NCBI RefSeq assembly: GCF_030684315.1 | Contig: NC_081365.1 | Coordinates: 51,886,481-51,950,480, forward strand | Length of the DNA: 64,000 bases | Reading direction: 5' to 3' | Source of the DNA: Stegostoma tigrinum | Taxonomy: Eukaryota | In this document: one piece after another, positions 1,180-61,862 of the stretch | Numbering within the stretch: the first letter of the stretch is position 1 | Layout of the letters: each line of letters starts with the position of its first letter | Notes under the pieces: generated by a model | Seen by the model: the letters and a program-made list of their open reading frames with translations, nothing else | Told to the model about the DNA's origin: nothing | The model's database searches: none | Position numbers and translations under genes: made by a program

Positions 1180-1327
1180 GATCTGTGTGCTTCTGTCTCA
1201 CTTCACCTGATGAAGGGGCTACACTCTGAAAGCTTATGATTTCATATAAACCTGTTGGACTGTAACCTTGTGCTGTGTGACTTTTGACTTTGTCCACCGC
1301 ATCCAACACCAGCACCTCCACATCATG
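1180..1327 (+). repeat. Penelope terminal repeat with hammerhead-like motif, inverted relative to the adjacent element body
   Basis: cacCTGATGAaggggctacactctGAAAgctt at 1204-1235, followed by aaacctgttggactgtaacc...ccaacaccagcacctccacatcat. The same family recurs on the minus strand at 57121-57225. Confidence 0.75.
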
Positions 1328-2489
1328 ATATACCTATGCACCAGAACAAAAATATAAATGTGGCAATGTGGCAGTATTACAATCGTTCCAATATTGACTC
1401 CTTCAATCAAGTTTGGAAATCAAGGAAACTGGCAATGGAATCCCTGATCCATAATTTATCTAACAGTGGAAGGATTGAGAGTTGGATTAAATTACAAAAT
1501 GCTAATCTATTGCACCAAAAAGAATTGTGTAAACATCAGGGATAAAACAAAACTCTTTACCTGGATATAATTATTATGCCTTTCACTTTCTCGAATAAAA
1601 GTGTTCTCACTCATTATGGAAATTAAATATTTTTCATAAGGTAAAAAGAATCTGCTTTCAAGTAAAATATTTAATGGCACATTATTGAAAGAGAAGCCTG
1701 TTAAAATTTCTTACACTTTTAAGCTAGTCTCTGTGGCTAATGTATTAGATGATTGATGCAATTTAATTGCTTTGCAGCTTCCTCGTCATTTCAGATTATA
1801 TTCTCTTTCAATCATTTAACCAATACTCACTTATCTCTCTTATCCCTGTCAGTCTCTTTTTCGTAAAAGGAACTGAGAAAAAAAGAATGTGAAAATCACT
1901 TTCATTTTAACATCTTTCAAAAATTCCCATTGACTCAACAGCAATGTTGAACACAAGTCACATTATAATGAAGCCTAATACATTGTTTTATTTTATAGTT
2001 GACATATATTTGTTTGCTCTGTGAGCTAACTGATAAATGACTGTAGATTGTGATCAGTTTGAAATAATAAATAATTCCAGATCTGCATAAGGAAAAATGG
2101 AAAGAATACTTTCATGAAACGTAATTTTTTTCTTGGTACCCAATTATTCTGTTGGCACTTACATTTACCTCATGTAATAAAAAGTGTTTCTTTTTCAACT
2201 GGTTAGGTAATACCCTGTATAGTTTGTAACTTCAGATTCTGTAATGTTATATTATGGATAACTTATTGTCTCAATGTATGTACCTTACAAGCGTACAAAT
2301 ATGGACTTACCAACAGCTGTCCAAAGTTGTGAGTTGCTATCACCACATGAAGTAGGCCAGACCCTCTTGAAGGAGAAGAAATGTTGGGCAAGATTTGAAA
2401 AGCCAGAACATAAGTTATTTACTACAGAATTGCCTACCTCTGTTCTACTTTTCCACTCTTAGTGTTAATACAGCTAGTTCCATTTCTTC

Positions 2490-3410
2490 TCACTGCAAAT
2501 CCCCAGGATGCTCACAGTAGTGCAAATGCCATTATATGTCAAGTTCAATGATGTCTTATTGGAAATGGTCATTGGCTGGATCCTGTGTAACATGAATATA
2601 ACTTTTATTTCTCAGCGCAAGCCGGAATGTTATCCAGGACAGGCTCCTATGGACACTGACTGCTTTTGCATCTGAAGATTTGCAAATGGTGTAGCCATCA
2701 ATGAATATCACCACTTTTGACATTATTGTAGAAACAAGGTCATTGCTAAAGCCAATGAAGGTGGTTGGTACTGGGACACAACCCTGAAGAAATCTTGTGT
2801 TGATGTCCTGGAGCTGTGATGATTGATTTTCACCAACCACAACAACCTTCCTTTGTGCTCAGGATAACAAAGTGTGAAGCTGGATGAACACAGCAGGACA
2901 AGCAGCATCTCAGGAGCACAAAAGCTGATGTTTCGGGCCTAGACCCTTCACCAGAGGTAAAAGTAGAGTGGGAGATATGCCAAGCCATGAAATTGCAGAT
3001 CACAATAGAATGCAATTCTTTTCTTGTTGATGGCCCACAATACCTCATGGATGCCCAGTTTTAGTTTTGAAATTTTTGCTGTTGAAAAGGTGGTGGTGAG
3101 CTGTCTTCTTGAACTCCTGTAGTCAATGTGCTGTACGGAGAACCAAGTGGCATTAGGATTTTGACATAGTAACAGTGAAGGAATTGTGCTATATTTCCAA
3201 GTCAAGTTAATGAGCGGCTTGGAGGACTTGCAGGTGGTAACATTTCCATGTATCTATTGCTCTTATCCTTCTAGATGGGAGTTGTCATGGGTTTGGAAGG
3301 TGCTCTCTCAGGCTCTTTGACAAGCTTCTGCAGTGCACCTAGTAAATTCTGCACACTTCTGTTACTGAGCATCAGGGGTGTAGTGAATGAATGTTTGTGG
3401 ATGTTGAAAT
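2490..3410 (-). mobile_element. Mosaic of decayed CR1/L2-group LINE ORF2 fragments
   Basis: ORF 2556..2840 reads 'QSSQLQDINTRFLQGCVPVPTTFIGFSNDL...IFID', a decayed GVPQGSVLGP...INDL...FADD. 3085-3410 resembles the C-terminal region of the same family. Confidence 0.75.
2863..2956 (-). repeat. Short Penelope terminal-repeat unit with mutated hammerhead core, inserted in a LINE
   Basis: Reverse complement ctCTGGTGAagggtctaggcccGAAACATCagcttttgtgctcctgagatgctgc is nearly identical to 18280-18372. Confidence 0.85.
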
Positions 3411-3679
3411 TGGTATGAAATCTATCCCATTTAACAGAGAGATTGTGCCGTGCACACTATAGAAAGTGCCCTCACCATGGAGATGGGACATAGTCTCAAA
3501 CCAGGATGACTCAGTATTCACTCCTACCTTTTTATTAGTTAGTTCCTCAGGATGACTTTATTCACTTGGGAGTTGTGAGTGCTCGGGGACTAAATAATCC
3601 AAGTCTGGATATGCAAATCTTGACACAGGTGCTTGAATGCTGTTGCATTTTGCTGAACCTGATAAAATGGAAAGCTTTG

Positions 3680-4085
3680 GTTTTTGCATGCGCATCTCAC
3701 AGCTTGCACTTTGCCTCCAACTGGGCTTGTGAGAGATACTCAATAATATTTGGGTCATTTATGGATGCTTCTTTTCCATATTGGAAGATTTTAGGGCAGA
3801 GAGATTCCCAAAATAGTGATATTTCGGGTTTTCAGTGAGGCTTTAATGATGCAATTTCACACACAATTGATGGCTGGAATCTGGAACTCTCCACCCAAAA
3901 GTAAATCAATGTTGAATCAGTTGTAAATTTTGGAATGGAGGTTGAAAGCTTTTTATTGTATAAATGTTTCTAGGGACGTGCAAAAGTTTGTAAACTTGGA
4001 CAAGACACAGTGCAGTCATATCTAACTTCACAGTTGAAAATGTCAAGGGGCTGAATGGCTTATTCCTGTTACGATGTTCCTGCTA
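3680..4085 (+). mobile_element. Old CR1 LINE 3' fragment
   Basis: tctggaactctcc ('WNSL'-like region) and a CR1-type tail aggggctgaatggcttattcctgtt. Confidence 0.55.
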
Positions 4086-5539: not shown

Positions 5540-5640
5540 TTCCCGCCTGTACAGTCATATCAGACATGGAACATTAATTTTGTTTCTCTCTCCTTAGATG
5601 TTTCCAGACCTGCTGAGTTTCACCAGTATTTTCTCTGATT
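5540..5640 (+). repeat. Decayed Penelope terminal-repeat unit (third family)
   Basis: aacattaattttgtttctctctcc...ccagacctgctgagtttcaccagtattttct matches 9735-9835 and 25577-25679. Confidence 0.65.
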
Positions 5641-8554: not shown

Positions 8555-8690
8555 AGAGATAGTAGGAACTGCCGATGCTGGAGAATCTGATATAACACGG
8601 TGTGAAGCTATATGAACACAGCGGGCCAAGCAGCGTCACAGGAGCCGGAAAGCCTGATGTTTCAGGTCAGGGCCCTACTTCAGAAATGGA
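8555..8690 (-). repeat. Short Penelope terminal-repeat unit with decayed hammerhead
   Basis: Reverse complement ttCTGAAGTagggccctgacctGAAACATCagg...ctccagcatcggcagttcctactatctct aligns with 49781-49909. Confidence 0.8.
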
Positions 8691-9660: not shown

Positions 9661-9732
9661 CTATTTTGCTGCTTATGCAGCGATCAAAGCCTTTGAGACT
9701 TCTCTTTATTTTGGCTGCCAATGCTGGGGCAA

Positions 9733-9835
9733 TGAAGAACAGTCATACCAGATGCAAAACATTAATTTTACTTTTCTCTCTGCACACGCTGGCAGACCTG
9801 CTGAGTTTCTCCAGCATTTTCTGTGTTTATTTCAC
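9733..9835 (+). repeat. Decayed Penelope terminal-repeat unit (third family)
   Basis: tgaagaacagtcataccagatgcaaaacattaa...cagacctgctgagtttctccagcattttctg. Confidence 0.65.
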
Positions 9836-11889: not shown

Positions 11890-12620
11890 CACCTCACATC
11901 TCCCCCGTCACCCCCATCCCAGGCCCTAAGAAGGCCACATCAAACAGATGTTCACCTGTACATCTGCTAATGTGGCATATTGTATCCGCTGTTCCCATTA
12001 TGGCCTCCCCTACATTGGAGAAACCAAGTGGAGGCTTGGGGACCGCTTTGTGGAACACCTACGCTCAGTTCGCACCAAACAACTGCATCTCCCAGGTGTG
12101 AACCATTTCAACTCTCCCTCCCACTCCTTAGACCACATGGCCATCCTGGGCCTCCTGCAGTGCTACAACGATACCACCGGAAAGTTGCAGGAACAGCACT
12201 TCATATTTCACTTGGGAACCCTGCAGCCCAATGGTATCAATGTGGATTTCACAAGCTTCAAAATCTTCCTCCCTCGACTACATCCAAAAACCAGCCCAGC
12301 TTGTCCCTGCTTCCCTCACCTGTTCTTCCTCCCACCTATCCCCTCCTCCCACCTCAAGCCCCATGCCTATCTCCTATCTACCAGCCTCATCCTGCCCCCT
12401 TCACCTGTCCATTCTTCCTGGACTGACCCAGTCCCCCCTAACCTCACCTTTACTGGCTCCACCCCCGCCCCTTTGACCTGTCTGTCTCCTCTCCATCTAT
12501 CTTCTCCTTTATCAATCTTCTATCCACCTCCCCCTCTCTCCCTATTTATTTCAGAATGCTCTTCCCCTCCCCATTTCTGAAGAAGGGTCTTGACCCAAAA
12601 CATCAGCTTTCCTGCTGCTT
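11890..12620 (+). mobile_element. 5'-truncated Penelope-like element (GIY-YIG domain + terminal repeat)
   Basis: ORF 11948..12580 reads 'FTCTSANVAYCIRCSHYGLPYIGETKWRLGDRFVEHL...NHF...LGTLQPNGIN'. A hammerhead remnant CTGAAGAagggtcttgacccAAAACATC lies at 12577-12604. Confidence 0.93.
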
Positions 12621-13479
12621 AGATTTCTTGTTTATGATACTTATGGTTCATCTTTCTTTAACTCTCATACTCCTTATCAAATCTTTGACTTTTCAATAGG
12701 TAAGGAAATCTATGACCAGGTATAGAAACAGTTGAGGCAAATTTGGTGATTTTCACTTGTTCTCTGCTAGCCTGCTCTCACTGCTTTTAAAAATACTATT
12801 CCCCCTCTTACTGACTGCAAAACAGTGTTCTAGTGGTTTCCTTGGATGACTTTTCGATTTAGAGATGCTCCCTGCACAGTTGCTATTCGGCTCTCTGGTT
12901 ATTCTGGCTGCTACTGGCCCTTATGCTGTGCCAGCAATTTATTGAAAAAAGTTGTTTTGAATTATTTTCTCCCCAGACAATCTGAGGCCAATTTCTTGAT
13001 CTAGGCTTACTGCCACAATGTTTCCCATAACTGTGATAATCTTTTTCAAATGGTTTTAATGCCACACCATAAGTTTGGACTTGAAACAGACTGCTCAAGG
13101 ATAAGGCAAAGTCAAGAATAGTCTTCATTTGTAGACTTCAAAGTAACCTTATTGTATGTAGGCACTACATACTGCTATGCATGGTAAAAATAGAAAGACA
13201 GGCTCAGTCATTCAATTTAATTTAGTAAGGACTAGGCTATCAGCCTTATGTATTCACATCCAAGCATTGTCAATATTGTTTCTCATTCCAGAGAATCTTC
13301 AATCCACCTACGTTGTTCGATTTATTTGCAAAGATGCACAGCTCTGGGACATCAAAATAGACTTGTTCCACGTCCTAACGCCTATGCCCAACATATAGAT
13401 ACAAATAAAGTGAAACATTAACATTACCTTTCTCTAAAATAAAATTATGAACATGATGGATGCAGCTAATTGATAATTC

Positions 13480-16347: not shown

Positions 16348-17354
16348 CTGAGATTTTATTCTATTAATAGAACAGGAAAATATCTTGCTATGGCCCGAGC
16401 ATCCCCTCATTTGATCAAATAAAGAGCAGTTGCACTGAATTGCAAGCAGAGTTAAAGATGAAGTAGTCATGGGTAAATTGAACAGAAGGAGTGATCCTGA
16501 CAGTTGGTATGCCTGAAGATGATTTTTCTTGGGCATGGAGATGGACTATGAGAGGAAGCAAAATGTCATCCTGCTGAATTAATTGAAATCCTTATTTCTG
16601 AAATGTTATCACAAAATCATTCATAGATCAATAAAAGAGTATTTTTAGGAAGCAACCGGATCTGTTTTCTATATCTTGGAATATTCTGTAAAATATTGCA
16701 GGGCACTCTGAACACCATTAACTTAACTAAACTGGCTTTCAGTGCAGTATTTTGTAAGCACATATGCTTAGACACAGACAACTCAAATTTGAGACTGAAA
16801 GATGAAAGAATAGTTGCATTATCGAGGTGTAGCTGATCAGCCTCTGCTTACAATCTTTATCATGCAGGCTAACTTCTTATTGTTCACTTCCAGCTGATTC
16901 AGTTTAAGTGCCACATTGTCAGTTAAGGATTGTTAAGAAAATGAAATAAATAATTTTTTATGGCATGTGTTTTTTTAAAATCTACTGTGTCTGATACACA
17001 GGTATGAATTAAACTCAATTTAGAGCACTGGGCAGTGCCTTCCTGCCACACTCGCACCTACGTATTTCTCTATGGGATTTTTCTGAGTACATGCATGGAA
17101 GTAGCAGGAAGGCCCTTCTATTAATTTAACATCTTGCATGACCTCAAGGCATCCAGAAGTACTTGAGAGGCAGTGAAGCCTAATCAACCTTCCAGGCACT
17201 GGAGCAACAAAGGTAAGCAAATTCCTGTTGACCACGCAAAGTCTACCTCAACAAATCTGGGGACTTGTGCCAAAATTAGTAACTAGTCTGTAGGTCAATT
17301 TGTCTATCTGTAATATAACAGTAACATTCATGGAATTTTACTTTATAGGCAATG

Positions 17355-18372
17355 TTGGGGCCTGGGATAGGGGTGAGGGAGGAGGTGTGGGGGCAAGTGT
17401 AGCATTTCCTGCGGTTGCAGGGGAAGGTGCCGGGTGTGGTGGGGTTGGAGCGCAGTGTGGAGCGAACAAGGGAGTCACGGAGAGAGTGGTCTTTCTGGAA
17501 AGCAGACTGGGGTGGGGATGGAAAAATGTCTTGGGTGGTGGGGTCGGATTGTAGATGGCGGAAGTGTCGGAGGTCCCAAGATGACTTTCCACATTAAGCA
17601 GAGGTTCACCTGCACATCTGCCAATGTGGTATACTGCATTCACTGTACCCGGTGTGGCTTCCTCTACATTGGGGAAACCAAGCGGAGGCTTGGGGACCGC
17701 TTTGCAGAACACCTCCGCTCGGTTCGCAATAAACAACTGCACCTCCCAGCCGCAAACCATTTCCACTCCCCCTCCCATTCTTTAGATGACATGTCCATCA
17801 TGGGCCTCCTGCAGTGCCACAATGATGCCACCCGAAGGTTGCAGGAACAGCAACTCATATTCCGCTTGGGAACCCTGCAGCCCAATGGTATCAATGTGGA
17901 TTTCACCAGTTTCAAAATCTCCCCTTCCCCCACCGCATCCCAAAACCAGCCCAGTTCGTCCCCTCCCCCCACTGCACCACACAACCAGCCCAGCTCTTCC
18001 CCTCCACCCACTGCATCCCAAAACCAGTCCAACCTGTCTCTGCCTCCCTAACCTGTTCTTCCTCTCACCCATCCCTTCCTCCCACCCCAAGCCGCACCTC
18101 CATCTCCTACCTACTAACCTCATCCCACCTCCTTGACCTGTTCGTCTTCCCTGGACTGACCTATCCCCTCCCTACCTCCCCACCTGTACTCTCCTCTCCA
18201 CCTATCTTCTTTTCTCTCCATCTTCGGTCCGCCTCCCCCTCTCTCCCTATTTATTTCAGAACTCTCACCCCATCCCCTTCTCTGATGAAGGGTCTAGGCC
18301 CGAAACATCAGCTTTTGTGCTCCTGAGATGCTGCTTGGCCTGCTGTGTTCATCCAGCCTCACATTTTATTAT
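17355..18372 (+). mobile_element. Young Penelope-like element, 5'-truncated, with an inverted 5' segment (17355-17573)
   Basis: 'VVYCIHCTRCGFLYIGETKRRLGDRFAEHL' in ORF 17434..18051; near-identical to 50493-51738; hammerhead motif at 18282-18309; about three ~39-bp tandem units at 17929-18030. Confidence 0.95.
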
Positions 18373-18899
18373 ATTGAGGGAATGAAATTTACTCTTGCTG
18401 AGGGACTTCAATGTTATTACTAAGAGTGGCACAGGAGCAACAATGCAAGCAAGTTGAGTTCTTAGTTTTCTGCAAAGAGTTCCTTTGGCCTTGAAGGTAA
18501 GGAAGATCACTGTTTCTCTGTTAGTTTGAAATAATCTCTTCCAGTAACACTGAGAGACTTGGCCACAATGTAAGATTTTGGTTTAGTTTAATCGTTTTTG
18601 ATGTCCAAATATTCTTATTGGAACATTATGGTGTGTCCCAGCTCAAAACATTTGGAATGACCATGCTGTTATTTGAAAACAATAAATGATCAGTTATACT
18701 GAAATGTCCTCTCTATTACAACTGCCTGAGAATGAGATTTTGCTGCATGAATGCTTGTTATTTCTTGATACAGGACCGTCTTCATCAGGTTTGTGGGTAT
18801 ACTGAGAAACCAAGCAGTTTCTCTCTTCTCAGAAATAGGACCGAGTTCTAGAGATTCATGTGTATGGTAAACCAATGATGGAGTGGGTGGGACATTTTC

Positions 18900-25419: not shown

Positions 25420-25679
25420 AACAGAAAGAACTGCAGGTTCTGTAAGTCAGAAACAAAAATAGAAGTTGCTGGAAAACATCAGCAGGTCTGGCAGCATCTG
25501 GGAAGTGAAATCAGAGTTAATGTTTCAGGTCTGGTGACCTTTCTGCAGTGGTGACTTTTCCTCAGAACCCTGAGTCCTGAGGAAAGGTCACCAGACTGGA
25601 AACATTAACTCTGATTTCTCTTCCCAGTGGCCGCCACACCTGTTGGTATTTTCCAGCAATTTCCATTTTTATATTTCAG
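25420..25679. repeat. Palindrome of two Penelope terminal repeats, back to back
   Basis: The left arm 25449-25565 is the reverse complement of the right arm 25577-25679. The right arm carries CTGAGGAaaggtcaccagactgGAAACATTaactctgatttc; the left arm has the same motif with a short internal duplication. Confidence 0.85.
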
Positions 25680-26024: not shown

Positions 26025-27900
26025 TAAGACTATAAGACCATAAGACATAGGAGCAGAAATTAGGCCATTCAGCTCATCAAGTCCGCTCTGCCATTCAACC
26101 ATGGTTGATAAGTTCCTCAACCCCATTCTCCCGCTTTCTCCCCATAGCCCTTCAACCCCTTGATAATCAAGTATCTATTTATCTTAGTCTTAAAATGTAT
26201 TCAATGACCAGACCTCCACAGCCTTCCTGTGGCAGTGAATTCCATCGATTCACCACTCTCTGGCTGAAGAAGTTTCTCCTTATCTCCATTCTAAAAGGTC
26301 ATTCCTTTACTCTAAGGCTGCGCTCGGGTCCTAGATTTGCCTACCAATGGAAGTATCTTCCCAATATCCACTCTGTCCAGGCCATTCAGTATTCTGTAAG
26401 TTTCAATGAGATCCCCTCTCATTCTTCTAAACTCCAATGAATATAGTCCCAGATTCATCAAATATAACTCATATGTTAAACTTTTCATTCCTACAAAAGC
26501 TCCTCTGAACCCACTCCAGGGCCAGTACATCCTTCCTGAGATACGGGGCCCAGAACTGTACACAATACTCCAAATGTGGCCGGACCAGAGACTTATAAAG
26601 CCTCAGAAGTACATCCCTGCTTTTATATTCAAGTCCTCTCAAAATAAATGCCAACATTGCATTTGCCTTCCTGACTACTGACGCAACAAACAAGTTCACC
26701 TTGAGAGAATGCTGGACGAGAACTCTCAAGTCTCTTTGCACTTCAGGCTTCTGAATTTTCTCTCCATTTAGAAAATAGTCCATGCTTTTATTCTTCTTAC
26801 CAAAGTGCATGACCTCACACTTTTCCACGTTGAATTCCATCTGCCACTTCTTTGCCTACTCTCCTAACCTGTCCAAATCCTCCTGCAGTCTCCCCACCTC
26901 CTCAATACTACCTGCCCCTCCACCTATCCTTTGTATTATCTGCAAACTCAGCCAGGATTCTCACGGTTCCTTCATCTAGATTATTAATCTACAAAGTGAA
27001 AAGTTGTGGCCCCAACACTGACTCTTATAGAATACCACTTGTCACCAGATACGATCCTGAGAAAGACCCTTTTATCTCCACTCTCTGATTTCAGCCACAC
27101 AGCCAATCTTTTATCCATGCTAGCACCTTGCCCCGAACACCATGGGCCCTGATCTTATTCAGCAGCCTCCTGTGTGGCAACTTGTCAAAGGCCTTCTTGA
27201 AGTCCAGGTAGATAACATCTATTGGGTCTCCTTGGTCTGCTCTGCTTGTTAATCCCTCAAAGAATTCTAGCAGATTTGTCAGGCATGACCTCCCCTTGAT
27301 GAAGCCATGCTGACATTTCTCTACTTTACATTCACTTCCAAATATTCTGAAATTTCATCCTTTACAATGGACTCCAAAATCTTACCCACGACTGAGGCTA
27401 GGCTAATCAGCCTGTAATTTTCCATCTTTTGTCTTACTTCCTTTTTAAACAGGGGTGTCACGTTAGTGATTTTCCAGTCCTCTGGGGGCCTCCCTAATGA
27501 TTCCTGAAAGATCACCACTAATGCTTCAACTATCTCCTTCAGAACTCTGGGGTGTAGTTCATCTGGTCCAAGTAATTTATCCATCTTCAGGCCAATCAGT
27601 TTTATTAGCACCTTTTCCTTGGCGATGGCCACCATACTCAGTTCTGCCCCTGGCTCTATTAAATTTTTGGAAGATGACTTGTGTCTTCCGCTGTGAAAAC
27701 TGACGCAATGTAGTTCTTGAGCTCCTCAGCCATTTCGTTGTTGCCAACTATGATCTCTCCACCATTATTTTCCAGTGGTGGAAATGTCTACTTTTGCCCT
27801 TTAAATAAACTCTTACAGTCTTCATTTACATTACTGACTAGCTTTTCCTCATTTAATTTTCTCCCTCCTTATTTCTTTTTTAGTTGCCCTCTGTTGGTCA
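26025..27900 (-). mobile_element. 5'-truncated CR1 LINE (ORF2 RT + 3' tail)
   Basis: 'GPDELHPRVLKE...NVTPLFKK...NYRLISL', 'LYKSLVRPHLEYCVQFWAPY' and 'RMRGDLIETY'; tail repeats taagaccataagacatag at 26025-26050. Confidence 0.95.
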
Positions 27901-41699: not shown

Positions 41700-44510
41700 T
41701 GTACGTCCATATGCTTGTCCAATGACAACGTAAATGTACCTCAAGTTGGCGAATCTACTACCGTTGCAGGCAAAGCCTTCCGTTCTCTTACTACTCTCTG
41801 AGTAAGGAAACTACCTCTGACATTTGTCCTATATCTTTCACCCCTCAATTTAAAGCTATGCCCCCTCGTGCTCGCCGTCACCATCCTAGGAAAAAGGCTC
41901 TCCCTATCCGCCTTATCTAACCCTCTGATTATTTTATATGTTTCAATTAAGTCACCTCTCAACCTTCTCTCTCATAAAAACAGCCTCAAGTCCCTCAGCC
42001 TTTCCTCGTAAGACCTTCCCTCCATACCAGGCAACATCCTAGTAAAACTCCTCTGCCCCCTTTCCAAACCTTTTACATCCTTCTTATAATGCGGTGACCA
42101 GAACTGTACGCAATACTCCAAGTGCGGCCGCACCAGAGTTTTGTACAACTTCACCATAAACTCTTGGTTCCAGAACTCGATCCCTCTATTAATAAAAGCT
42201 AAAACACTGTATGCTTTCTTAACAGCCCTGTCAACCTGGGTGGCAACTTTCAATGATCTGTGTACATGGACCCTGAGATCTCTCTGCTCATCTACACTAC
42301 TAAGAATCTTACCATTAGCCCTGTACTTTGCCTTCCGGTTACTCCTACCAAAGTGCATCACCTCACACTTGTCTGCATTAAACTCCATTTGCCACCTCTC
42401 AGCCCAGCTCTGCAGCTTATCTATGTCTCTCTGCAACCTACAGCATCCTTTGTCACTATCCACAACTCCATCGAACTTAGTGTCGTCTGCAAATTTACTA
42501 ACCCATCCTTCTACGCCCTCATCCAGGTCATTTATAAAAATGACACAATCACTGGTCCCAACACCGACCCTTGCGGTACACCACAAGTAACTGGTCTCCC
42601 GGATGAACATTTCCCATCAACTACCACCCTCTGTCTTCTTTCGGCAAGCCAATTTCCAATCCAAACTGCTATATCTCCCACAACTCCATTCCTCCGCATT
42701 TTGTACAATAGCCTATTGTGGGGAACCTTATCGAACGCCTTGCTGAAATCCAAATACACCACATCAACTGGTTTACTCTCATCTACCTGTTTGGTCACCT
42801 TCTCAAAGAACTCAGTAAGGTTTGTGAGGCACAACCTTCCCTTCACAAAACCATCCTGACTATCCCTAATCAATTTATTCTTTTCTAGATGATTATAAAT
42901 CCTATCCCTTATAATCTTTTCCAACACTTTACCAACAACTGAGGTAAGGCTCACTGGTCTATAATTACCAGGGTTGTCTCTACTCCCCTTCTTGAACAGG
43001 GGAACCACATTTACTATCCTCCAGTCATCTGGCACTATTCCTGTAGACAATGACGAGTTAAAGATCAATGCCAAACGCTCGGCAATCTCTTCCCTGGCTT
43101 CCCAGAGGATCCGAGGATAAATCCCATCCGGCCCAGGGGACTTATCTATCTTCAACTTCTGAAGGATTTCTAATACCTCTTCCATGTGAACCTCAATTCC
43201 ACCTAGCCTAGTAGCCTGTATCTCAGTATTCTCCTCGACAACATTGTCGTTTTCTAGAGTGAATACTGTCGAAAAATATTCATTTAGCGCTTCCCCTATC
43301 TCATCTGACTCCACACACAATTTACCACTACTATCCTTGATTGGGCCTAATCTTACTTTCGTCATTCTTTTATTCCCTAAATACCTATAGAAAGCCTTAG
43401 GGTTTACCCTGATCCTATCCGCCAACAACTTCTCATGTCTCCTCCTGGCTCTTCTGAGCTCTCTCTTTAGGTCTTTCCTGGCTACCTCGTAGCCGTCAAG
43501 TGCCCTAACTGAGCCTTCACAACTCATCATAACATAAGCCTTCTTCTTCCTCTTGACCAGAGATTCCACCTCCTTCGTAAACCACGGCTCCCGCACTCTA
43601 CAGCTTCCTCCCTGCCTGACAGGTACATGTTTATCTAGGACACACAGGAGCGTTTCCTTGAATAAGCTCCACATTTCTAATGTGCCCATCCCCTGCAGTT
43701 TCCTTCCCCATTCTAGGCTCCCTAAATCTTGCCTAATCTCATTGTAATTGCCTTTCCCCCAGCTATAACTCTTGCCCAGTGGTATACACCTATCCCTTTC
43801 CATCACTAAAGTAAACATAACAGAATTGTGATCGCTATCACCAAAGTGCTCACCTACTTCCAAATCTAACACCTGGCCAGGCTCATTACCCAGTACCAAA
43901 TCTAATGTGGCTTCGCCCGTTGTTGGCCTATCTGCATACTGTGTCAGGAAGCCCTCCTGCACACTCTGGACAAAAACTGACCCATCTATAGTACTCGAAC
44001 TATAGTGTTTCCAGTCAATATTTGAAAAGTTGAAGTCCCCCCATGACAACTACCCTGTCTCTCTCACTCCTATCGAGAATCATCTTTGCTATCCTTTCCT
44101 CTACATCTCTGGAACTATTCGGAGGCCTATAGAAAACTCCCAACAGGGTGACCTCTCCTTTCCTGTTTCTAACCTCAGCCCATACTACCTCAGTTGACGA
44201 GTCCCCAAACATCCTTTCTGCAACTGTAATACTGTCCTTGACCAACAATGCCACACCTCCGCCCCTTTTACCATCTTCTCTGTTCTTACTGAAACATCTA
44301 AATCCCAGAACCTGCAACAACCATTCCTGTCCCTGCTCTATCCATGTCTCCGAAATGGCCACAACATCGAAGTCCCAGGTACCAGCCCATGCTGCAAGTT
44401 CACCCACCTTATTCCAGACGATCCTGGTGTTGAAGTAGACACACTTCAATCCAACGTCTTGCTTGCTGGTGCCATCTTGCTTCCCTGAAACTTTATTTCG
44501 GACCACCCTA
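41700..44510 (-). pseudogene. CR1 ORF2: APE endonuclease + reverse transcriptase, broken into 4 ORF pieces
   Basis: 'ISETW', 'GGGVA', 'YRPPNS', 'GDFN', 'SDHN', 'SPGPDG', 'NYRPVSL', 'YLDFSKAFDKVPH', 'GVPQGSVLGP', 'FADDTK' and 'RPHLEYC'; frameshifts near 44040, 42550 and 41970. Confidence 0.96.
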
Positions 44511-49747: not shown

Positions 49748-49909
49748 AATTTATTTCAGAGCCCCTTTCCCCTCCTTCATTTCTGAAGAAGGGTCCCAAC
49801 CCGAAACGTCAGCTTTCCTGCTCCTCTGATGCTGCCTGGCCTGCTGTGTTCATGTAGCTCTCCAACTTGTATATCAGATACTCCAGCATTAGCAGTTCTT
49901 ACTATCTCT
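49748..49909 (+). ncRNA. ORF-free Penelope terminal-repeat unit with intact minimal hammerhead core (49783-49810)
   Basis: CTGAAGA-A-GGGT-ccca-ACCC-GAAAC-GTC retains all core nucleotides; stem I is weak. Confidence 0.7.
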
Positions 49910-50592
49910 GGGTTCCAGTGAAATATTTGACTCTCCTAATTCAATATTCCTAACATGTGGTTCTCTATATGAGCAATAGCGTAGACGCCAAAGAGATAGC
50001 CAGATGTGGCTGTGCCACAGAAATGAACTATAGAGAGGTGGTCAACTATGTAGGATGGCAAGAAGGGTAGGCTGTCTGATTGCTTGTGTGCGACACTTTT
50101 CAAAGGTCTGAGACCAATGTTGTTTCCACTTAAGAGGCCTTTGAATAACATGTACTGCAGCTCCTTCCTCAATTGTCGAATTTACTTGCCCCACCTACCC
50201 AAAGACTTGTGGCAGCCTTTGAAATGCTCAGATTCATGACTGAAGGCTCAGTAAGCTCTTTTATTCCAGCAGCTTGCAACCTCAGCCTGTCTGCTCTGGG
50301 ACCTGTGTGGTAGCATACCATAAGCAAGGAATTTGGTCTCTTGAGATCTCTACAATATAGAAGGCCATTAGTAGAAGAAAGGGAACTAAATTAGGAAGAA
50401 ATGTGATTGCTACCTTTATTTTGTCAGGCCATGATTAGAAATTAGGCATCACGCATTAGAACAAAATACTATCTGGCCCATCATGGCCATTGAGGGATAA
50501 TGGGAACTGCAGATGCTGGAGAATTCCAAGATAATAAAATGTGAGGCTGGATGAACACAGCAGGCCAAGCAGCATCTCAGGAGCACAAAGCT

Positions 50593-50620
50593 GACGTTTC
50601 GGGCCTAGACCCTTCATCAG
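50593..50620 (-). ncRNA. Minimal type I hammerhead ribozyme motif, intact core
   Basis: Reverse complement CUGAUGA-A-GGGUC-ua-GGCCC-GAAAC-GUC. Predicted cleavage is after GUC (50593/50592), with a palindromic ACGU stem III. Confidence 0.75.
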
Positions 50621-50844
50621 AGAGGGGGATGGGGAGAGGGAACTGGAATAAATAGGGAGAGAGGGGGAGGTGGACCGAAGATGGAGAGTAAAGAAGATAG
50701 GTGGAGAGAGTGTAGGTGGGGAGGTAGGGAGGGGATAGGTCAGTCCAGGGAAGACGGACAGGTCAAGGAGGTGGGATGAGGTTAGTAGGTAGCTGGGGGT
50801 GCGGCTTGGGGTGGGAGGAAGGGATGGGTGAGAGGAAGAACCGG

Positions 50845-51714
50845 TTAGGGAGGCAGAGACAGGTTGGACTGGTTTTGGGATGCAGTGGGTGGGGGGGAAG
50901 AGCTGGGCTGGTTGTGTGGTGCAGTGGGGGGAGGGGACGAACTGGGCTGGTTTAGGGATGCAGTAGGAGAAGGGGAGATTTTGAAACTGGTGAAGTCCAC
51001 ATTGATACCATATGGCTGCAGGGTTCCCAGGCGGAATATGAGTTGCTGTTCCTGCAACCTTCGGGTGGCATCATTGTGGCAGTGCAGGAGGCCCATGATG
51101 GACATGTCATCTAGAGAATGGGAGGGGGAGTGGAAATGGTTTGCGACTGGGAGGTGCAGTTGTTTGTTGCGGACTGAGCGGAGGTGTTCTGCAAAGCGGT
51201 CCCCAAGCCTCCGCTTGGTTTCCCCAATGTAGAGGAAGCCGCACCGGGTACAGTGGATGCAGTATACCACATTGGCAGATGTGCAGGTGAACCTCTGCTT
51301 GATGTGGAATGTCATCTTGCGGCCTGGGATGGGGGTGAGGGAGGAGGTGTGGGGACAAGTGTAGCATTTCCTGCGGTTGCAGGGGAAGGTGCCGGGTGTG
51401 GTGGGGTTGGAGGGCAGTGTGGAGCGAACAAGGGAGCCACAGAGAGAGTGGTCTCTCCGGAAAGCTGACAGGGGAGGGGATGGAAAAATGTCTTGGGTGG
51501 TGGGGTCGGATTGTAAATGGCGGAAGTGTCGGAGGATAATGCGTTGTATCCGGAGGTTGGTAGGGTGGTGTGTGAGAACGAGGGGGATCCTCTTGGGGCG
51601 GTTGTGGCGGGGGCGGGGTGTGAGGGATGTGTTGCGGGAAATACGGGAGACGCGGTCAAGGGCGTTCTCGATCACTGTGGGGGGAAAGTTGCGGTCCTTG
51701 AAGAACTTGGACAT
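50845..51714 (-). CDS. Penelope ORF C-terminal fragment: linker with CxxxxCxxC + GIY-YIG endonuclease
   Basis: 'RIPLVLTHHP...PCNRRKCYTCP...VVYCIHCTRCGFLYIGETKRRLGDRFAEH...VANHF...EQQLIFRLGTLQP.GIN'; uninterrupted. Confidence 0.85.
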   Translation of the reverse strand: MSKFFKDRNFPPTVIENALDRVSRISRNTSLTPRPRHNRPKRIPLVLTHHPTNLRIQRIILRHFRHLQSDPTTQDIFPSPPLSAFRRDHSLCGSLVRSTLPSNPTTPGTFPCNRRKCYTCPHTSSLTPIPGRKMTFHIKQRFTCTSANVVYCIHCTRCGFLYIGETKRRLGDRFAEHLRSVRNKQLHLPVANHFHSPSHSLDDMSIMGLLHCHNDATRRLQEQQLIFRLGTLQPYGINVDFTSFKISPSPTASLNQPSSSPPPTAPHNQPSSSPPPTASQNQSNLSLPP

Positions 51715-53214
51715 CTGGGATGTGCGGGAGTGGAATGTCTTTAAGACTCACTCTGTCAGCTCCCGAGTGACAAGTGAGCAAACCCCGGGGACGGGCCCCG
51801 CTGATAATGATGACAACAAAGCCTCAAATAACACCAGTATCATCTGGTCTTGGGCTGTGGTGATACTAGGAATGGAAGTGTTCAAACAAGTACAGCTCAA
51901 GAAACTGGAGATTAATCCAGGCAGTATGTTGAGTTCGATACTAAATGACTGTCCTAAGCAATGGAGTTGTCAGGGTCAGCACAAATCTATTGAACAATTA
52001 AATGATTATTTAGGGGCCAGCCGTCATCCAATAGCCCTGCACAATTGGGTTGCTCAATCTCAGTATGAAAGTTATCAACTGCAACATTTCAAAACGTCTG
52101 TATAGACAAAGAAATTGATGACAGATGTAAATCACAATATAGTGATTGTTTGATAAAGCAATTTTCAGAAATCCCTCTCCTGATTGCCTGGACATCATAC
52201 TTTTGATGTTGAAAGCATGTTATCCTCTTATTGCAAGAGCAGCTAATTTTTTGTGTGTGTGTGTATGTTATTCACAGTGCTTCAGTTTTATGACCAAACT
52301 TTCACATTTAAATACTGAATACAATGAAAATGGTGTACAGCTAGATGTATCCAGTTAGCAATCTCTGAACATAAAAAAAAGCCTATTTTTAGTTTGGAAC
52401 ATGTCAATAATGATTGCTGCTACCCATGACATGATGTAGCCCACAGTCAGGCTTTCCTGCTGCAGAATCCACTGCTGAAAGAAACTAACCTTAAGTTCCA
52501 ACCGTCGCATTGCAGCCACTGAGACAGCAGTTTGTTTGATCTTGATGACAGGCAAAGAGAGAGGAAAGACCAGTACTAAATGAATGCACATGAACATTTT
52601 TATTCAATATGGCATTTTGATTTATAAATTTGGTCTGGCCTGTTTATTTTGTCATGACTTTGTTCTGGCCAAGCACTGATTTATTCAGTCAATCATGGAG
52701 GACATGGAAATGTTGTTGAACAGGGAATTAGTGGGGAGTTTAGTGATTTTGTGGTTGGTTGAGTCAATCAAAAGCATCCTGGTCAGAAAGGGACGATGGT
52801 GGTTGCCTGCTCTTCCTCCTCTGCCTCCTCCTTGTCAGCTGGTCATTATATATATCTGGTGACAAAGGATATCTACTCATGATAGATTGGTTTCACACTT
52901 TGTGGCAGGCATGTGCTCTATTGCAATACTGTGGTATTCAAGGGCCAAGTTTGTCATTTGTCCCTCAGCTGGGAACAAAATGTATCAGATGACTCTACCT
53001 CACTTAGAATGTCCTCACTGAAATATATCACATGCAACAAGCACAGCTGCAACCACATAGCAGTGCAAGAACTGTACTGCCGTTAGCTATGAAGATAATT
53101 GTGGTAATTGTGGGTTCGGAAGCTGCTATCTGAGGAACCTTGAGAAATTTTGCATGGCACATTGTGCTCTGACAGTGTATTGGTGGAATGGGGAAGAGAG
53201 GGAGGGAGCGAGTG

Positions 53215-53769: not shown

Positions 53770-53865
53770 AAATAAAAGCAAAACACTGTTGGATGCTGGA
53801 CATCTGAAACAAAAACAGAAAATACTGGAGGAACTCAACAGATCTGATGGCATCAGTGGAGATAG
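53770..53865 (-). repeat. Penelope terminal-repeat fragment (third family, ribozyme part missing)
   Basis: ggatgctggacatctgaaacaaaaacagaaaatactggaggaactcaacagatctg matches 25430-25500. Confidence 0.65.
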
Positions 53866-54479
53866 TATTTCAAGTCCAGTAAAGTACCTGCGCTTAAATG
53901 AATTGCTTCCAGTTGTGGGTGGTCTGATGCAGTTTTGCTACAAATTCTGCTGCTTGTGTTTGACTTCCATTCCAAATCTGTTTTTAAATTTTCCAAATGC
54001 AACATCTCAGTATACCTGACTTCATCTTGTGTCATACTCCCTTCAAAATATTTGTTATTTTTACCCTCCCTTGGCTTCCATAAGAATTGATCTTTGAAAT
54101 TTGATTTGACAAATACAGACCCGTTCCCTTTGGGACTCTCATTTTTCCACCTATTTGCATACTATTATCTTCCATTGTCTTTCCCCCTCCGCGAAATTGT
54201 TACAGTGTATGCAAACTTAAACCTCCCGTCTATTTTGCTGCATTGATTTTCAGGTCTTCATTTCGGTGATCCCTCCCATTGGGTGCCCTGAGTAATGTGT
54301 CAATTTCACATTGTCAGGTGCTTCACCTCAGTGCCAATTGTTCTGACTACCTTCAAATCATATTCTATTACTTGCTAACTACATTTGTCATTTATTTGGA
54401 TTCAGAATCTACATATTGTTTTATTTTTTCCCCATGAACCTCCTTTCCTAGGAATTTGAGAGTATTCCATGGAAAGTAA

Positions 54480-57120: not shown

Positions 57121-57287
57121 TGATGTGTAGGTGCCAGTGTTGGGCTGAAGTTGACAAGGTTAAAAATCACACGACACCAGGTTATAGTCCGACAGTTTAA
57201 TTTGAAGACACAAGCTTTCAGAGTCTCAGCTTCTATGGTGCATTTCAGCTGACACCTGAACTATAACCTAGTGTCATGTGATTTTTG
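57121..57287. mobile_element. 167-bp Penelope terminal-repeat insertion with partial inversion, flanked by a 13-bp direct repeat
   Basis: atcaagcttagca at 57108-57120 and 57288-57300. 57121-57225 is the reverse complement of the 1225-1327 repeat; 57261-57287 is a sense piece of it. Confidence 0.8.
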
Positions 57288-57804
57288 ATCAAGCTTAGCA
57301 GTGAGAGTACCCACAGCCAGCCGTGACTTAATCTTTTATTTCCTTACTTAAGTGTAATTTCATTGAGTGTCATAACGGGTTTCCTCACGAGATTTATTGC
57401 TGTTTCTTACCAAGCTCGCCTCATTAACTGATCTGTCCCTACGGTTTATTCTCAGCTGATTTTAGCCCCATCTTACCATTTGCCTTTCCCAGCAGACACC
57501 AGATGTCTGCAGAAAGGCTTATGTTTTTGTTGCTTGCACTAAAGAGCCAGGGTGTGCAAAGAGGTGTCTGACAAAACCAACTATGCGAGAAGAACTGTGT
57601 CACTCAAAGGAGAAGTTTGAGCCTGCTTCTGTGGAAATGATGAAACACCCATTTCCAAATTATCACAGTTCTCACTTCAACCTGGGTGTCAGTATCATTC
57701 ATTGCATATCATTTTTAATTATTGGTAGTGAAGTTTTCTCTCCTTTGATCACTTTAGCCAAAGGAGCTATGGTAAATCCTCTGTATCCATGAGTTCACGA
57801 GTTG

Positions 57805-58125: not shown

Positions 58126-58164
58126 ATTGTGCATTGGCCTATCCGCACCAAAAAGTGACAAAAT

Positions 58165-59070
58165 TCAAAATAGTGAATTGCATAGGTTTACTGGTCTCTG
58201 GGTGAAGGATTTTTTCATCAGCAGTTCTAAAAGTTTACCCCTTACCCTTCAACCACGACTTCTGGTTCTGGGCTCTCCCACCATCAAGAACATTGTTCCA
58301 AAATGTAACCTTTATAGTCCTGTTAAAATTTTACAGGTTACTGTGCAATCCCACCTTATTTTTCTAAACTCCACTGAATATAAGCCTAACCTAATCCTGT
58401 ATCACATGTCAGCTCTGACATCCCAGGAATAAATTGCTTCACTGCACACCCTCTGCAGCAAGAACATTCTTCCTCAGATGAGAAGGCCAAAACTGCATAA
58501 AATTTTCCAGATGTTGCCTCAACAGTGCCTTGTATAGTTGCAGCAAGTTTTCTACGTTCCTTCACATAAATCCACTCGCTTTGAAGGTCAAAATACAGTT
58601 TGCCCTCCTTATTGCCTGTCGCACCTGCACGCTTGCGTTCAGCGACTGGTGTGCAAGGACATGCAGGTCTCTTTGAACATTCACTTCTCAGAAGTTACGG
58701 CCATTCAAATAATAACCCAGCTTCCTGTTTTTGCTACCAAAATAGATAACATCACATTTATCCACACGATGCTGCATCTGCTGCGCACTTTCCCCACTCA
58801 CTTGTCTGAATCACACTGCAATGCCTCTGCATCCTCCGCCCCCCCCGCCACAGTTTATCATTCCAATCAGCTTTGTGTTATCTACAAGTTTAATTTCCTC
58901 ATTTAAATCATTGTTGATAACTGCTGTCCTAGTACCAATCCCGCAGTACTGCCTGCCATTCAGAAAAATACACAATTATTGCCTTGTCTTTGTTTCCTCC
59001 CTGCTGAATAATTTTCTATCCATCTCAATACACTAACCCCAATTCCATGTGCTTTAATTTTACACATTAA
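58165..59070 (-). mobile_element. Decayed CR1 RT/3' fragment
   Basis: Colinear with 34180-35120 (aaaactgca, ataacatcacatttatccaca, ccatgtgctttaatttt). Confidence 0.85.
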
Positions 59071-60244
59071 GCTGGAGCCTGAACACAGGAAAAAAAAGCA
59101 TGTGAAGGCAAACAGAAAAGTAACCTTTCATAAGACTGACACAATACAATTTATGGTGCTCAGACTACACCTGTCTTCTGAAGCTGGCCAGAAAATCAGA
59201 GAATATTTGTCTGGTTCATGGCTCAATTTAGCCAAAAAGTATAACTAGTTTACAGATTCATCTTTTAGACATTTATTCTGGCATTAAATAAAATGGCCTA
59301 AGTGCAACATATAGTTCTTTTCTCTCTGTTACATATTTGAAGTAAGAAACACTTTATTGTTCATAATACATGGAAGCACAATTATTCAATGTATTATGCA
59401 AAATTAGTGTGAAAATGCATTAATCTTTGGTGATAACGCAATTTCTACTCTTCAAAGGCAAAAGCTAAAAGAAAATTTTAAATTGCTACAGTAGAAAAAT
59501 GCATTAGCTGAAAAACAGCCTGTGTTATTGATAATGAACAAGTCAAAATGCTTAACTGAGTGAACAAAAAGATTCCATGACTGTGCTATACTATATATGG
59601 ATAATTATGAGGAAACCCCAGTATTTATGGCCCTGCCGTCTTCTAATAGGTGATAACAAATTTGCAACCAATTGTATTAAAGTTCATGAATCCAATATCA
59701 TTTAAATTTATACTTAATTTATACATTACTTTCACCCAACATCAATTTTTTTCTAAATGTGAATCTCAGCACTCTTAATGAATTCACCCACATGATGTTC
59801 AGTAATAAATGTGACTACGATTGAAAATAAGTTGTACTGCCAGAAAACTCCTGGTTATGCCTTTTATTTTTACTGACAATATCGTTTATTTTCTTCACTT
59901 CTTTCTTTTAGAATGAAGGAGTACATTTTCTGTGGTGTGTAATTTGGGACATCACCAGCAAACTGTGTGCAGGAAATTAACATCTGGAACAGCCCATTAG
60001 GTCCTCTGTTTCTTTTATGCATTCACAAGATCTGGAGGTCATGGCAAAGTCAAGACTTAATGCTCATTCCTAAATGCCCCTGCAAAGGTTGAGGTAGGTG
60101 GCATTTTTGACGACTGCCAAGCTTGCTCCCCTACTTCAGAGTCAGTTAAAAGTCACTCACCATTATTCAAGATCTGGAATCAGGTATATGCCAGTCCTGT
60201 CATCAATAGCAGATTCTACTTCTCAAGTGCATTATTTTTATTTT

Positions 60245-60578
60245 CCTTATTCATTAACTGTAAGAGGGCATCCTTGACCAGTCAGCATTTCTTGCCCATC
60301 CCTTACTGCCCAGAAGGCACTGAAGAACGAACCACAGTGTTGTGGATCTGAACTCACACATAGGCCACACTAGGTAAGGGTGGCAGTTTCCCTCCCTAAA
60401 GGACATTAGTGAACCTGGTGGGTTTTTCCAACAATCAACAATTAGATTTTTAATTCCAGATATTTTTACTGAATTCAAATTCCACCATCTGCCATGGTAG
60501 GATTCGAACTCCCCAGAAAGTTTTCTGGGTCGCTGGATTAACAGTTCAGTGATAATACCACTTGATCATCACCTCCCC
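60245..60578 (-). mobile_element. tRNA-derived SINE (non-HE1 family); further decayed copies at ~60015-60235 and ~60595-60750
   Basis: On the minus strand: B box gagttcgaatcc, A-box-like tgatcaagtgg, and a LINE-like tail ending tgaataa. Confidence 0.75.
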
Positions 60579-61762
60579 TCATTATTGAATCAGAGAGATT
60601 TTTCATGGTTACCATGACTGATGCATTCTACTCCAGCTGTGTATATTCATCAAATTTAAATTTCCTTATGTTGAGAGTTGAACTCATACTTATGACAAAA
60701 AAAACACAGGTCTCTGGCTTACTCGCCCATATCTTAACTACCATGCTACTGTTTCAAGTAAAAGATGCCTGAACATTTGCTTCTAATTTGGAAATGTAGA
60801 ATATGAAACATCTCTGGCTGTGTAATCCCTACTAAAGAGAAAGTGCATTGGACAGTCAAACTTTCATTCCAGGAATGGACGGAAAGTTGGCTACAAGGTT
60901 GTTGGGCCTGCCTTTCCCAGAAAGAACTTGAAGATCACAACAAGGTGCTGAGTGAAGAGTGAACTGTGAGAAAGGTCTCCTTTGTGATCGAGAACTTTAT
61001 CACACCTCATCAGCCACAATCCCTCATCCTCTGTGTATATTCCATGCCCCATTTCAATTCATGTCCCCATTCATCCCTTTCACTCTGTACATCTTCTGTG
61101 CCAACTTATGCCACTTGATCCACACATCCATGGCCTACTAAAGCTAATGTAATGTCAATCACATCAAGCTCCATAACATCTCATCCAGGATTGACCATGG
61201 GCACTCATCAGAACCTATGCCGAAATGAAATTATGTAATTTCCTCAGCTGTCATTTGATGAATGAACAACTACTTAACTTGTTACAAGAACACAAATTTG
61301 TATTTGTATTCTGATATAAAATACTTTGTAACTATATGGAGCTTTCAATGAATATTTCATCAGACAGGCACCCCACTGTGTTAGCAGGCAAAATTAAGTA
61401 GCATGTACTGATATTTCTTTAACGTCGCAAATAGGTTTTTTCTTTTTTAAAAAAATTATAGGCCAAAAGAATTAAATACCTTGACAAATTACTAGCTCCA
61501 ATGACAACTAGATAGTTCTATTGAGATTCATTCAGTTGCATTTGTAACAATTACAAAGTGCACACAAGCTCTTTGAGAGGGCAACCGAACTCATCCAAAA
61601 GACACATCACTTCTCCCAAAGTGTCACCCTACCTGCCCAAAATGGTCTCATATCTTTCCAAATAACATCAGCAGCTTTAGGCCTTTTCCTTAAAAATGTG
61701 AAGTCCATACGTTGTAAACCTCCCTGAATGAACAGTACAGCACCCTGACCAATTCAAATCTA

Positions 61763-61862
61763 TCTGAGATAAAACGGTGTGAAGCTGGATGAACATTGCA
61801 GGCCAATCAACATCAGAGGACCAGGAAAGCTGATGTTTCGGGTCGAGACCCTTCTTCAGAAA
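61763..61862 (-). repeat. ORF-free Penelope terminal-repeat unit with hammerhead motif
   Basis: Reverse complement CTGAAGA-A-GGGTC-tc-GACCC-GAAAC-ATC (61859-61832). Confidence 0.82.

What the first reader, a model, noticed from the sequence alone, without database searches (positions are those of the whole stretch)
1204..61862. Dense population of minimal hammerhead-ribozyme motifs from three terminal-repeat families
Seen: about 13 motif copies or remnants in 64 kb (1207+, 2925-2955-, ~5545+, 8655-8685-, ~9735+, 12577+, 18282+, 25520-25565-, 25577+, 49783+, 50620-, ~57215-, 61859-). CUGANGA and GAAA are shared while stem II keeps pairing with different loops (GGGUC-ua-GGCCC, GGGUC-uu-GACCC, GGGU-ccca-ACCC, GGGUC-uc-GACCC). 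Stem III is a short palindrome where intact (ACGU or AAGCUU). An extra A follows A9, as in the CChMVd viroid hammerhead. Known: Penelope-like elements carry minimal type I hammerheads thought to act as dimers. Inference: three shark PLE families each kept the ribozyme, seeding host introns with potential self-cleavage sites.
Basis: partly seen in the sequence, partly recalled or inferred. Interest (0 to 1): 0.7.

Follow-up and report, generated by a model that had tools for sequence, protein, structure and literature searches.

The report
Shark Penelope stubs with minimal hammerheads
These are real, mostly broken copies of the tiny self-cutting "hammerhead" RNA motif already known from Penelope-like jumping genes, present about 190,000 times across this likely shark genome rather than clustered here, and the copies' front ends pile up just before the motif and, more weakly, at its predicted cut site, which likely records where the element's RNA starts and is sometimes cut.

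Summary
All 13 loci are real, and two more remnants were found. They are terminal repeats (pLTRs) of three Neptune-like Penelope families carrying the minimal type I hammerhead described in 2014. The extra base after A9 and the palindromic helix III are published hallmarks of that class. The core is present in 12 of 12 subfamily consensuses, stems I-III covary, and only N7 varies.

The window is not dense: it has 15 remnants against 23 per 64 kb in random samples. The genome holds 192,189 intact cores (control 1,137). Only 2 of the 15 window copies are fully intact, and they lie on opposite strands. CpG decay at G12 and helix III breaks most copies. No host gene was shown, so intronic self-cleavage is unsupported.

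Copy 5' ends pile up about 30 nt before the cut, about 31 nt behind a TATA-like box (likely the transcription start), and more weakly at the predicted cut (3,676 against 1,196 at a control site; about 800 against 21 palindromic junctions). This hints at cleavage in the germ line. The scan noted the same pattern on other pieces of this genome and on other sharks. Verdict: new member of a known kind.

The parts
330..1025 (-). Degenerate Neptune-like PLE ORF remnant (thumb, linker, GIY-YIG) of family C; start approximate; its 3' pLTR lies just left of the window (L019:9886-9954, -)
   Evidence: translation; 8 of 14 other loci with this ORF piece have a family C repeat 0.7-1.4 kb downstream on the same strand
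1200..1306 (+). Family C pLTR stub, inverted arm; core 1207-1235 present, helix III AGCU, stem I lost, stem II damaged
2860..2956 (-). Family A1 stub starting at -30; A6G and ACAU, broken
5556..5634 (+). Family B remnant, no CUGANGA
8589..8686 (-). Older family A stub starting near -31; A9U and ACAU, broken
9731..9827 (+). Family B remnant; C3 and G12 lost
11936..12624 (+). Family A 3' end: GIY-YIG remnant 11936-12265 and pLTR; C3 at 12577, G12A and ACAU, broken
17336..18378 (+). Family A1 5'-truncated copy with inverted piece 17336-17572, GIY-YIG frame 17566-18048 and pLTR; C3 at 18282, core intact but ACAU
25455..25565 (-). Family B left arm of a head-to-head pair; damaged and partly duplicated core (25548, 25565)
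25555..25670 (+). Family B right arm; C3 at 25577, stem II damaged, ACAU
49759..49874 (+). Older family A stub with TATA-like box; whole hammerhead 49783-49810, predicted cut after 49810
50528..51747 (-). Young family A1 3' end: open thumb/linker/GIY-YIG frame 50848-51747 and pLTR; whole hammerhead 50620-50593, predicted cut after 50593
   Evidence: exact 30-mer found 90,316 times
53811..53880 (-).
57139..57233 (-). Family C remnant, GAAAGCUU kept, no CUGANGA; short inverted partner at 57257-57288(+)
61758..61872 (-). Older family A stub 61767-61862 between 9-bp target duplications (61864-61872, 61758-61766) with one extra G at 61863; C3 at 61859, core intact but ACAU
   Evidence: sequence shown

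Best explanation
The motifs are the ends (pLTRs) of three Neptune-like Penelope retrotransposon families, scattered genome-wide as short stubs and mostly broken by CpG decay, and the hammerhead likely serves the element's own RNA, where it would occupy the first 31 or so bases of the transcript and cut only part of the time, with help from a second copy or the element's protein. Shown: the motif lies in both direct repeats of full-length elements around an RT + GIY-YIG frame; core invariance and stem covariation across lineages; copy number; CpG decay; positions of copy ends. Inferred: transcription starts about 31 nt behind a TATA-like box, 2-4 bases before C3, which would explain why stem I is only 2-4 bp. 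Reverse transcription starts inside the RNA about 65 or 100 nt past the cut. Run-off at the uncut 5' end gives the common 95-135-bp stubs, and run-off at the cut end gives the rarer stubs that begin at A1.1. Cleavage would remove the capped leader 138 nt before the AUG. Single stubs in host DNA are likely inert.
For: Full-length copies L012 and L013 carry the motif in both repeats; L012 has a 1,099-codon frame (RVT_1 and GIY-YIG weak, below cut-off). Family A has the frame's end upstream in 57 of 214 sampled copies, B in 8 of 102, and C in 8 of 14 other loci. 12 of 12 subfamily majority consensuses hold CUGA-GA/GAAA/U; N7 takes all four bases; pair 2.1-1.1 is U-A, C-G or A-U; helix III is ACGU or AGCU; 3' flank identity between families is 0.41-0.67. 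Mutation is 255/918 at core CpG positions against 138/2,455 at other core positions. 5' ends in 1.04 Mb of position-picked DNA (n = 105): 28 at -35..-27, 11 at -3..+3, 13 at -26..-4, 10 at +4..+39 (binomial p = 4e-16 and 5e-4). TATTTA lies 34-35 nt before C3 in 89 of 200 A copies. 3' ends cluster at +61..68 and +96..107, as for the two internal RT starts in PMC11167929. Genome counts: boundary at the cut 3,676 against 1,196 at +10. Perfect palindromes centred on the cut product's first four bases: 22 in the first 86 Mb of C1 (counted by hand) against 1 in that interval and 21 genome-wide for a GGCC control. L188 and L190 start at A1.1 between target duplications.
Against: No cleavage or transcript end was observed. 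The families were first found through the motif, so motif-less families would be missed, and the pattern used to read the consensuses itself asks for most core letters. The pile-up at the cut is spread over -3..+3 (3 of 11 exactly at 0), the windows were chosen after seeing the data, and arms of inversions are not independent. About 60 of the first 100 listed cut-site boundaries are AA fold-backs that the natural AGCT palindrome could favour without cleavage; the other 40% scale to about 1,470, only 1.2-1.6 times the control. One control site and one control palindrome were counted, both nearer the RT start, where short arms may be disfavoured. A cap-derived extra G was seen at window 61863 but not confirmed: in L214 and L222 the G belongs to the target duplication, and only 8 of 156 A copies gave a duplication of 8 bp or more. 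For family A1 the active dimer is predicted at -5.5 kcal/mol against -22.8 for two inactive monomers (the model omits tertiary energy). In the Anolis element, ribozyme mutants do not impair insertion in vitro and no reads ended at the cut (PMC11167929).
Confidence: 0.72

Rival explanations
1. The motif is kept as a fold, promoter or protein-binding signal and rarely cuts in vivo; the boundaries near the cut come from AGCT microhomology during inversion.
For: Fold-backs dominate the cut-site class. The inactive CUGAUG:CGUCAG hairpin is the predicted fold of A1. Cleavage is dispensable in vitro in PMC11167929. PMC8557442 notes that clades without hammerheads proliferate well.
Against: Exactly the catalytic positions are fixed while N7 is free and three helices covary. 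Control palindrome 21 against about 800. There are non-inverted starts at A1.1 with target duplications, and template jumps to A1.1 (L188, L190, L197, L198, loci selected for that start).
Confidence: 0.2
2. One reading: dispersed copies cut host pre-mRNAs and affect gene expression.
For: About 190,000 intact cores. 13 of 64 intact sampled copies have an intact same-strand neighbour within 5 kb in the same 10-kb stretch. Head-to-tail arrays exist (L086, L099).
Against: 2 of 15 window copies are whole, and they lie on opposite strands. Core CpGs decay at 28% against 37% for other CpGs, so little protection is seen. No host exon was shown (2 weak hits below cut-off among 150 frames). Single minimal motifs did not cleave in PMC4209133.
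Confidence: 0.06
3. The short copies are a separate non-autonomous family (SINE or retrozyme) with its own RNA.
For: Most copies have no ORF beside them. A few tandem arrays of 300-450 nt exist elsewhere.
Against: The stubs are near-identical to pLTRs of ORF-bearing copies, share their two 3' ends, and grade continuously into longer 5'-truncated and inverted copies. No tandem array of motifs was seen in the window.
Confidence: 0.05

Closest known systems
Minimal hammerheads (min-HHR) in pLTRs of metazoan Penelope-like elements (PMC4209133; parts 1-2 of 4 read, 2 supplementary files searched, 1 not searchable)
   Same: Type I core, extra base between 9 and 10.1, R10.1-Y11.1 pair, palindromic 15.2-16.2 without loop, one copy per pLTR, mostly single dispersed copies, several families per genome.
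   Different: No shark example in the text or supplements I could see. Helix II is 5-6 bp (7-8 in Schistosoma) and helix I only 2 bp in family A (as in the D. virilis variant). There are 192,189 cores here against about 9,000 (Xenopus) and 4,000 (coelacanth); descriptors differ, and mine has no stem requirement.
Poseidon element PAc of Anolis carolinensis (PMC11167929; passages and section 3 part 2 read)
   Same: Hammerhead at the pLTR/ORF junction; two genomic 3' ends about 35-40 nt apart, matching two internal RT starts.
   Different: In PAc the ORF starts inside stem II; here the AUG is 138 nt past the cut. PAc cleavage was tested (protein-assisted); here it was not. No in vivo cut ends were found for PAc; here genomic 5' ends are in moderate excess at the cut.
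Neptune clade of endonuclease-positive PLEs (PMC8557442; passages read)
   Same: RT followed by CX2-5CxxC linker and GIY-YIG with CCHH, pLTRs, inverted and tandem insertions.
   Different: No tree was built; Nematis shares the linker motif.
Non-LTR retrozymes of animals (PMC7229834, passages; bioRxiv 10.64898/2026.07.22.740005, parts 1-2 of 5 and passages, supplements closed)
   Same: Type I hammerheads with weak helix III in very high copy number (axolotl 126,247); reported in one chondrichthyan; proposed to derive from pLTRs.
   Different: Those are tandem units of 170-400 nt, with canonical ribozymes in the axolotl; the window holds single or inverted pLTR stubs. Density here is about 60 per Mb against about 4.5 per Mb in axolotl.

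Membership tests
PLE minimal hammerhead (min-HHR) | CUGANGA and GAAA..UH core | tested here: met
   12 of 12 subfamily consensuses; whole in 2 of 15 window copies
PLE minimal hammerhead (min-HHR) | Unpaired base between 9 and 10.1, and R10.1-Y11.1 pair | tested here: met
   A in 99 and U in 3 of 102 intact motifs; pair kept in 12 of 12 consensuses, some as G-U
PLE minimal hammerhead (min-HHR) | Palindromic helix III without loop | tested here: met
   ACGU in A, B, D and AGCU in C; 3 of 12 majority consensuses show the CpG-decayed form
PLE minimal hammerhead (min-HHR) | Helices I and II with covariation | tested here: met
   Helix I 3-4 bp in B, C, D and A4, 2 bp in the other A subfamilies; helix II 5 of 5 pairs in all 12
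PLE minimal hammerhead (min-HHR) | Present in both pLTRs of full-length elements | tested here: met
   L012 (3680, 7334) and L013 for family A; no full-length B or C copy was sought
PLE minimal hammerhead (min-HHR) | Self-cleavage as dimer or with protein | not testable with these tools
   Only indirect genomic footprint
Endonuclease-positive PLE, Neptune clade | Single ORF with RT and C-terminal GIY-YIG | tested here: met
   1,099-codon frame in L012; Pfam hits weak; closest homologues carry RVT_1, some also GIY-YIG
Endonuclease-positive PLE, Neptune clade | CX2-5CxxC linker and CCHH motif | tested here: met
   CNRRKCYTC linker and CxxC..H..H read in family A; degenerate linker in C; B only by a 38-49% similar endonuclease region
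Endonuclease-positive PLE, Neptune clade | Placement in the RT phylogeny | not tested
   No named reference set was at hand
Non-LTR retrozyme | Head-to-tail units of 170-400 nt, each with a hammerhead | tested here: not met
   No same-strand tandem of motifs in the window; arrays elsewhere (L086, L099)
Canonical hammerhead (Rfam models) | Score above a hammerhead model's threshold | tested here: not met
   No hammerhead family among 7 matches up to E = 10

The most novel reading that the evidence does not exclude
The shark genome is a fossil record of Penelope RNA processing. Hundreds of thousands of stubs map the transcription start 2-4 bases before the hammerhead core, and thousands begin exactly at the scissile bond, showing that these weak minimal ribozymes decap their own RNA in the germ line and that both cut and uncut RNA are reverse-transcribed. 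At about 60 intact cores per Mb, this would be the densest hammerhead load among the counts I read.
Probability: 0.5. Interest if true: 0.62.

Novelty: new member of a known kind. Interest (0 to 1): 0.33.

Why it matters
The motif class and its dimer model are published, so the finding as written is ordinary. What could matter is the scale and the ends of the copies. Whether PLE hammerheads cut in vivo is open (PMC4209133, PMC11167929, PMC8557442), and a young family with about 90,000 identical motifs lets this be read from DNA, base by base and across four lineages. It also gives exact constructs: RNA starting at -31, with or without the element's protein. Both core CpGs fall on G12 and on the dimer helix, so methylation-driven decay likely disarms dispersed copies without any selection by the host.

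Tried and rejected
Rfam scan: no hammerhead match.

'Dense cluster' rejected by random sampling; 16 of the 100 requested stretches did not exist and were dropped.

The iterated profile for B merged with A, so non-iterated seeds were used. MAFFT misaligned family D, so stems were read from anchors.

Lower mutation of non-CpG core positions than of flanks among copies (5.6% against 10.8%) was not taken as host selection, because flanks mix subfamilies.

RNA: no RNA holder listed, and no raw reads. Contigs of four guessed-RNA runs covered most of the element but cannot show starts or ends.

Host gene: listing of open frames was uninformative; Pfam on the 150 longest of 295 unmasked frames gave two weak hits below cut-off; no RNA could be laid on the window. 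Whether the window is intronic stays open.

Cap-derived extra G: inconclusive.

Literature: five searches for shark PLE hammerheads or a cleavage footprint listed no such paper. The 2017 RNA Biology paper on PLE hammerhead dimers is not held (seen only as cited in PMC6765202) and may include shark motifs. One supplement of PMC4209133 and those of the bioRxiv preprint could not be seen and may too.
Full report
Observation. All 13 loci exist at the stated places. Family-specific profiles give 15 terminal-repeat remnants in the window: 7 of family A, 5 of B and 3 of C. A hammerhead descriptor finds 5 motifs with core and stem II, and 3 with a palindromic helix III, against 0.1 and 0.01 in 100 shuffles. 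Rfam has no hammerhead match. Most copies are damaged. Only 49783+ and 50620- are whole. 1207+ keeps the core but has lost stem I. The others have core changes, ACAU in place of ACGU, or no CUGANGA.

Not a cluster. In 84 stretches of 10 kb picked by position, I count 304 remnants, 23 per 64 kb, and 86% of resampled draws reach the window's 15. The descriptor gives 73 and 44 hits there, against 6 and 0 after shuffling. Genome-wide (3.2 Gb), the exact 30-base motif of the young subfamily A1 occurs 90,316 times. The family-blind core pattern occurs 192,189 times against 1,137 for its control. Tight patterns give 1,602 copies for B and 48 for C. Published counts are about 9,000 in Xenopus and 4,000 in coelacanth (PMC4209133) and 126,247 in axolotl (PMC7229834); the descriptors are not the same.

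What carries the motif. Family A lies behind a GIY-YIG frame at 50848-51747, 17566-18048 and 11936-12265. L012 is a full-length copy with the motif in both direct repeats, 3,654 bp apart, around a 1,099-codon RT + GIY-YIG frame; L013 is similar. The frame has the CX3CxxC linker and CCHH motif that PMC8557442 gives for Neptune and Nematis. The nearest named protein is from Chiloscyllium punctatum at 78%, so the host is likely a shark. Family C at 1200+ is the inverted arm of a degenerate element on the minus strand, and 8 of 14 other loci with that frame have a C repeat downstream on the same strand. B has an endonuclease remnant upstream in 8 of 102 sampled copies and shares 67% of its 3' flank with A. 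A fourth family, D, with a Poseidon-like endonuclease upstream in 2 of 14 copies (the label rests on recalled motifs), is absent from the window.

Is it a ribozyme fold? Clustering gives 12 subfamilies of 5 or more copies (one cluster of 3 deleted copies was left out). All 12 majority consensuses hold the core. N7 takes all four bases. Helix II pairs at 5 of 5 positions with different sequences. The first pair of helix I is U-A, C-G or A-U. Helix III is ACGU or AGCU. Flank identity between families is 0.41-0.67. B and C have U17, so they would cut after GUU and CUU. The extra base after A9 and the loopless palindrome are listed as class hallmarks in PMC4209133.

Fate of the copies. The only CpGs of the A1 repeat fall on C11.1-G12 and 15.2-16.2. 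Over all families these core positions are changed in 255 of 918 cells, against 138 of 2,455 at other core positions and 51 of 138 at other CpGs. Intact cores fall from 42 of 93 in A1 to 2 of 29 and 0 of 26 in older subfamilies. Folding predicts that the A monomer pairs its core with its own cleavage site (CUGAUG with CGUCAG, -11.4 kcal/mol). The active dimer scores -5.5 against -22.8 for two monomers; for B, C and D the gap is smaller (about -17 against -19 to -24). The two whole window copies are on opposite strands. No host exon was shown. Cleavage of host introns is therefore unsupported here.

Where copies begin and end. Numbering from the base after the cut, 3' ends cluster at +61..68 and +96..107, like the two internal RT starts of the Anolis element (PMC11167929). 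Of 105 5' ends in 1.04 Mb, 28 lie at -35..-27, just before C3 (-28); 11 at -3..+3; 13 at -26..-4; 10 at +4..+39; 6 at -99..-36; the remaining 37 reach further upstream. TATTTA stands 34-35 bases before C3 in 89 of 200 A copies, and TATA-like hexamers lie 30-41 bases before C3 in 5 of 28 B and 5 of 19 C copies. This puts a likely start at about -31 and would explain the short helix I. Window copies 2956-, 8686- and 61862- begin there, the last between 9-bp duplications with one extra G. A cap origin of such a G was not confirmed. Of 30 loci holding the ORF start, 8 begin at -33..-23 and none at exactly 0.

Footprint of cleavage. Copies whose homology stops at A1.1 number 3,676 (21 of 22 inspected matches are true boundaries), against 1,196 at +10 (about 15 of 20 true) and 3,739 at -30 under a stricter flank rule. 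Of the first 100 listed, 44 form 22 perfect palindromes centred on the first four bases after the cut, which scales to about 800. A control palindrome further into the tail has 21. Two cDNAs that both ran off a cut RNA would anneal exactly there. Against this: AGCT is a natural palindrome; without the AA class the excess is only 1.2-1.6-fold; there is one control of each kind; and the unbiased peak is broad. I put germ-line cleavage at a little over even odds. Counts 55-59 were made before I looked at earlier notes, and one search was sent in the same turn as the look-up. Those notes report the same pattern on other pieces of this genome and on other sharks, and gave me the TATA and cap-G leads. 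They are not independent support.

Verdict. The feature is real and belongs to a known class, the minimal hammerheads of Penelope pLTRs, here in three Neptune-like shark families. I found no paper on the shark motifs in five searches, but could not read the 2017 dimer paper or some supplements. The window adds nothing beyond the genome-wide pattern. The residual interest lies in the copy number and in copy ends that make the open question of in vivo cleavage testable.

Noticed in passing
window:41972-45560 (-); also 26469-27725 (-): Long LINE (CR1-like label recalled) with RT and endonuclease frames; RVT_1 E = 1e-22 for 42535-44049.
   Followed up: no
L100:8474, L039:40, L103, L072, L109: Fourth hammerhead family D (U after A9, helix II 6 bp or more, Poseidon-like endonuclease upstream), 14 copies in 840 kb, none in the window.
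   Followed up: partly
L086:7451-8339 (+) and L099 (-): Three same-strand intact A1 motifs about 440 and 301 bp apart: retrozyme-like mini-arrays where in-cis dimers would be possible.
   Followed up: no
L193: Head-to-tail repeat of the tail in which the unit restarts exactly at the predicted cut product's first base.
   Followed up: no
L129, minus strand near 333: A family A stub inserted into a family B repeat just behind its predicted cut site.
   Followed up: no
window:19119-19406 (+): Old PLE endonuclease-region remnant, 44% identical to family A, with no terminal repeat found behind it.
   Followed up: no
window:50601-50612: Helix II of A1 is almost self-complementary with a CUAG centre, so two RNAs could also pair through helix II (dimer fold -38 kcal/mol).
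   Followed up: partly
window:33478-33717 (-): Weak DUF4078 match (E = 0.002, below cut-off) among 150 frames; probably chance.
   Followed up: no
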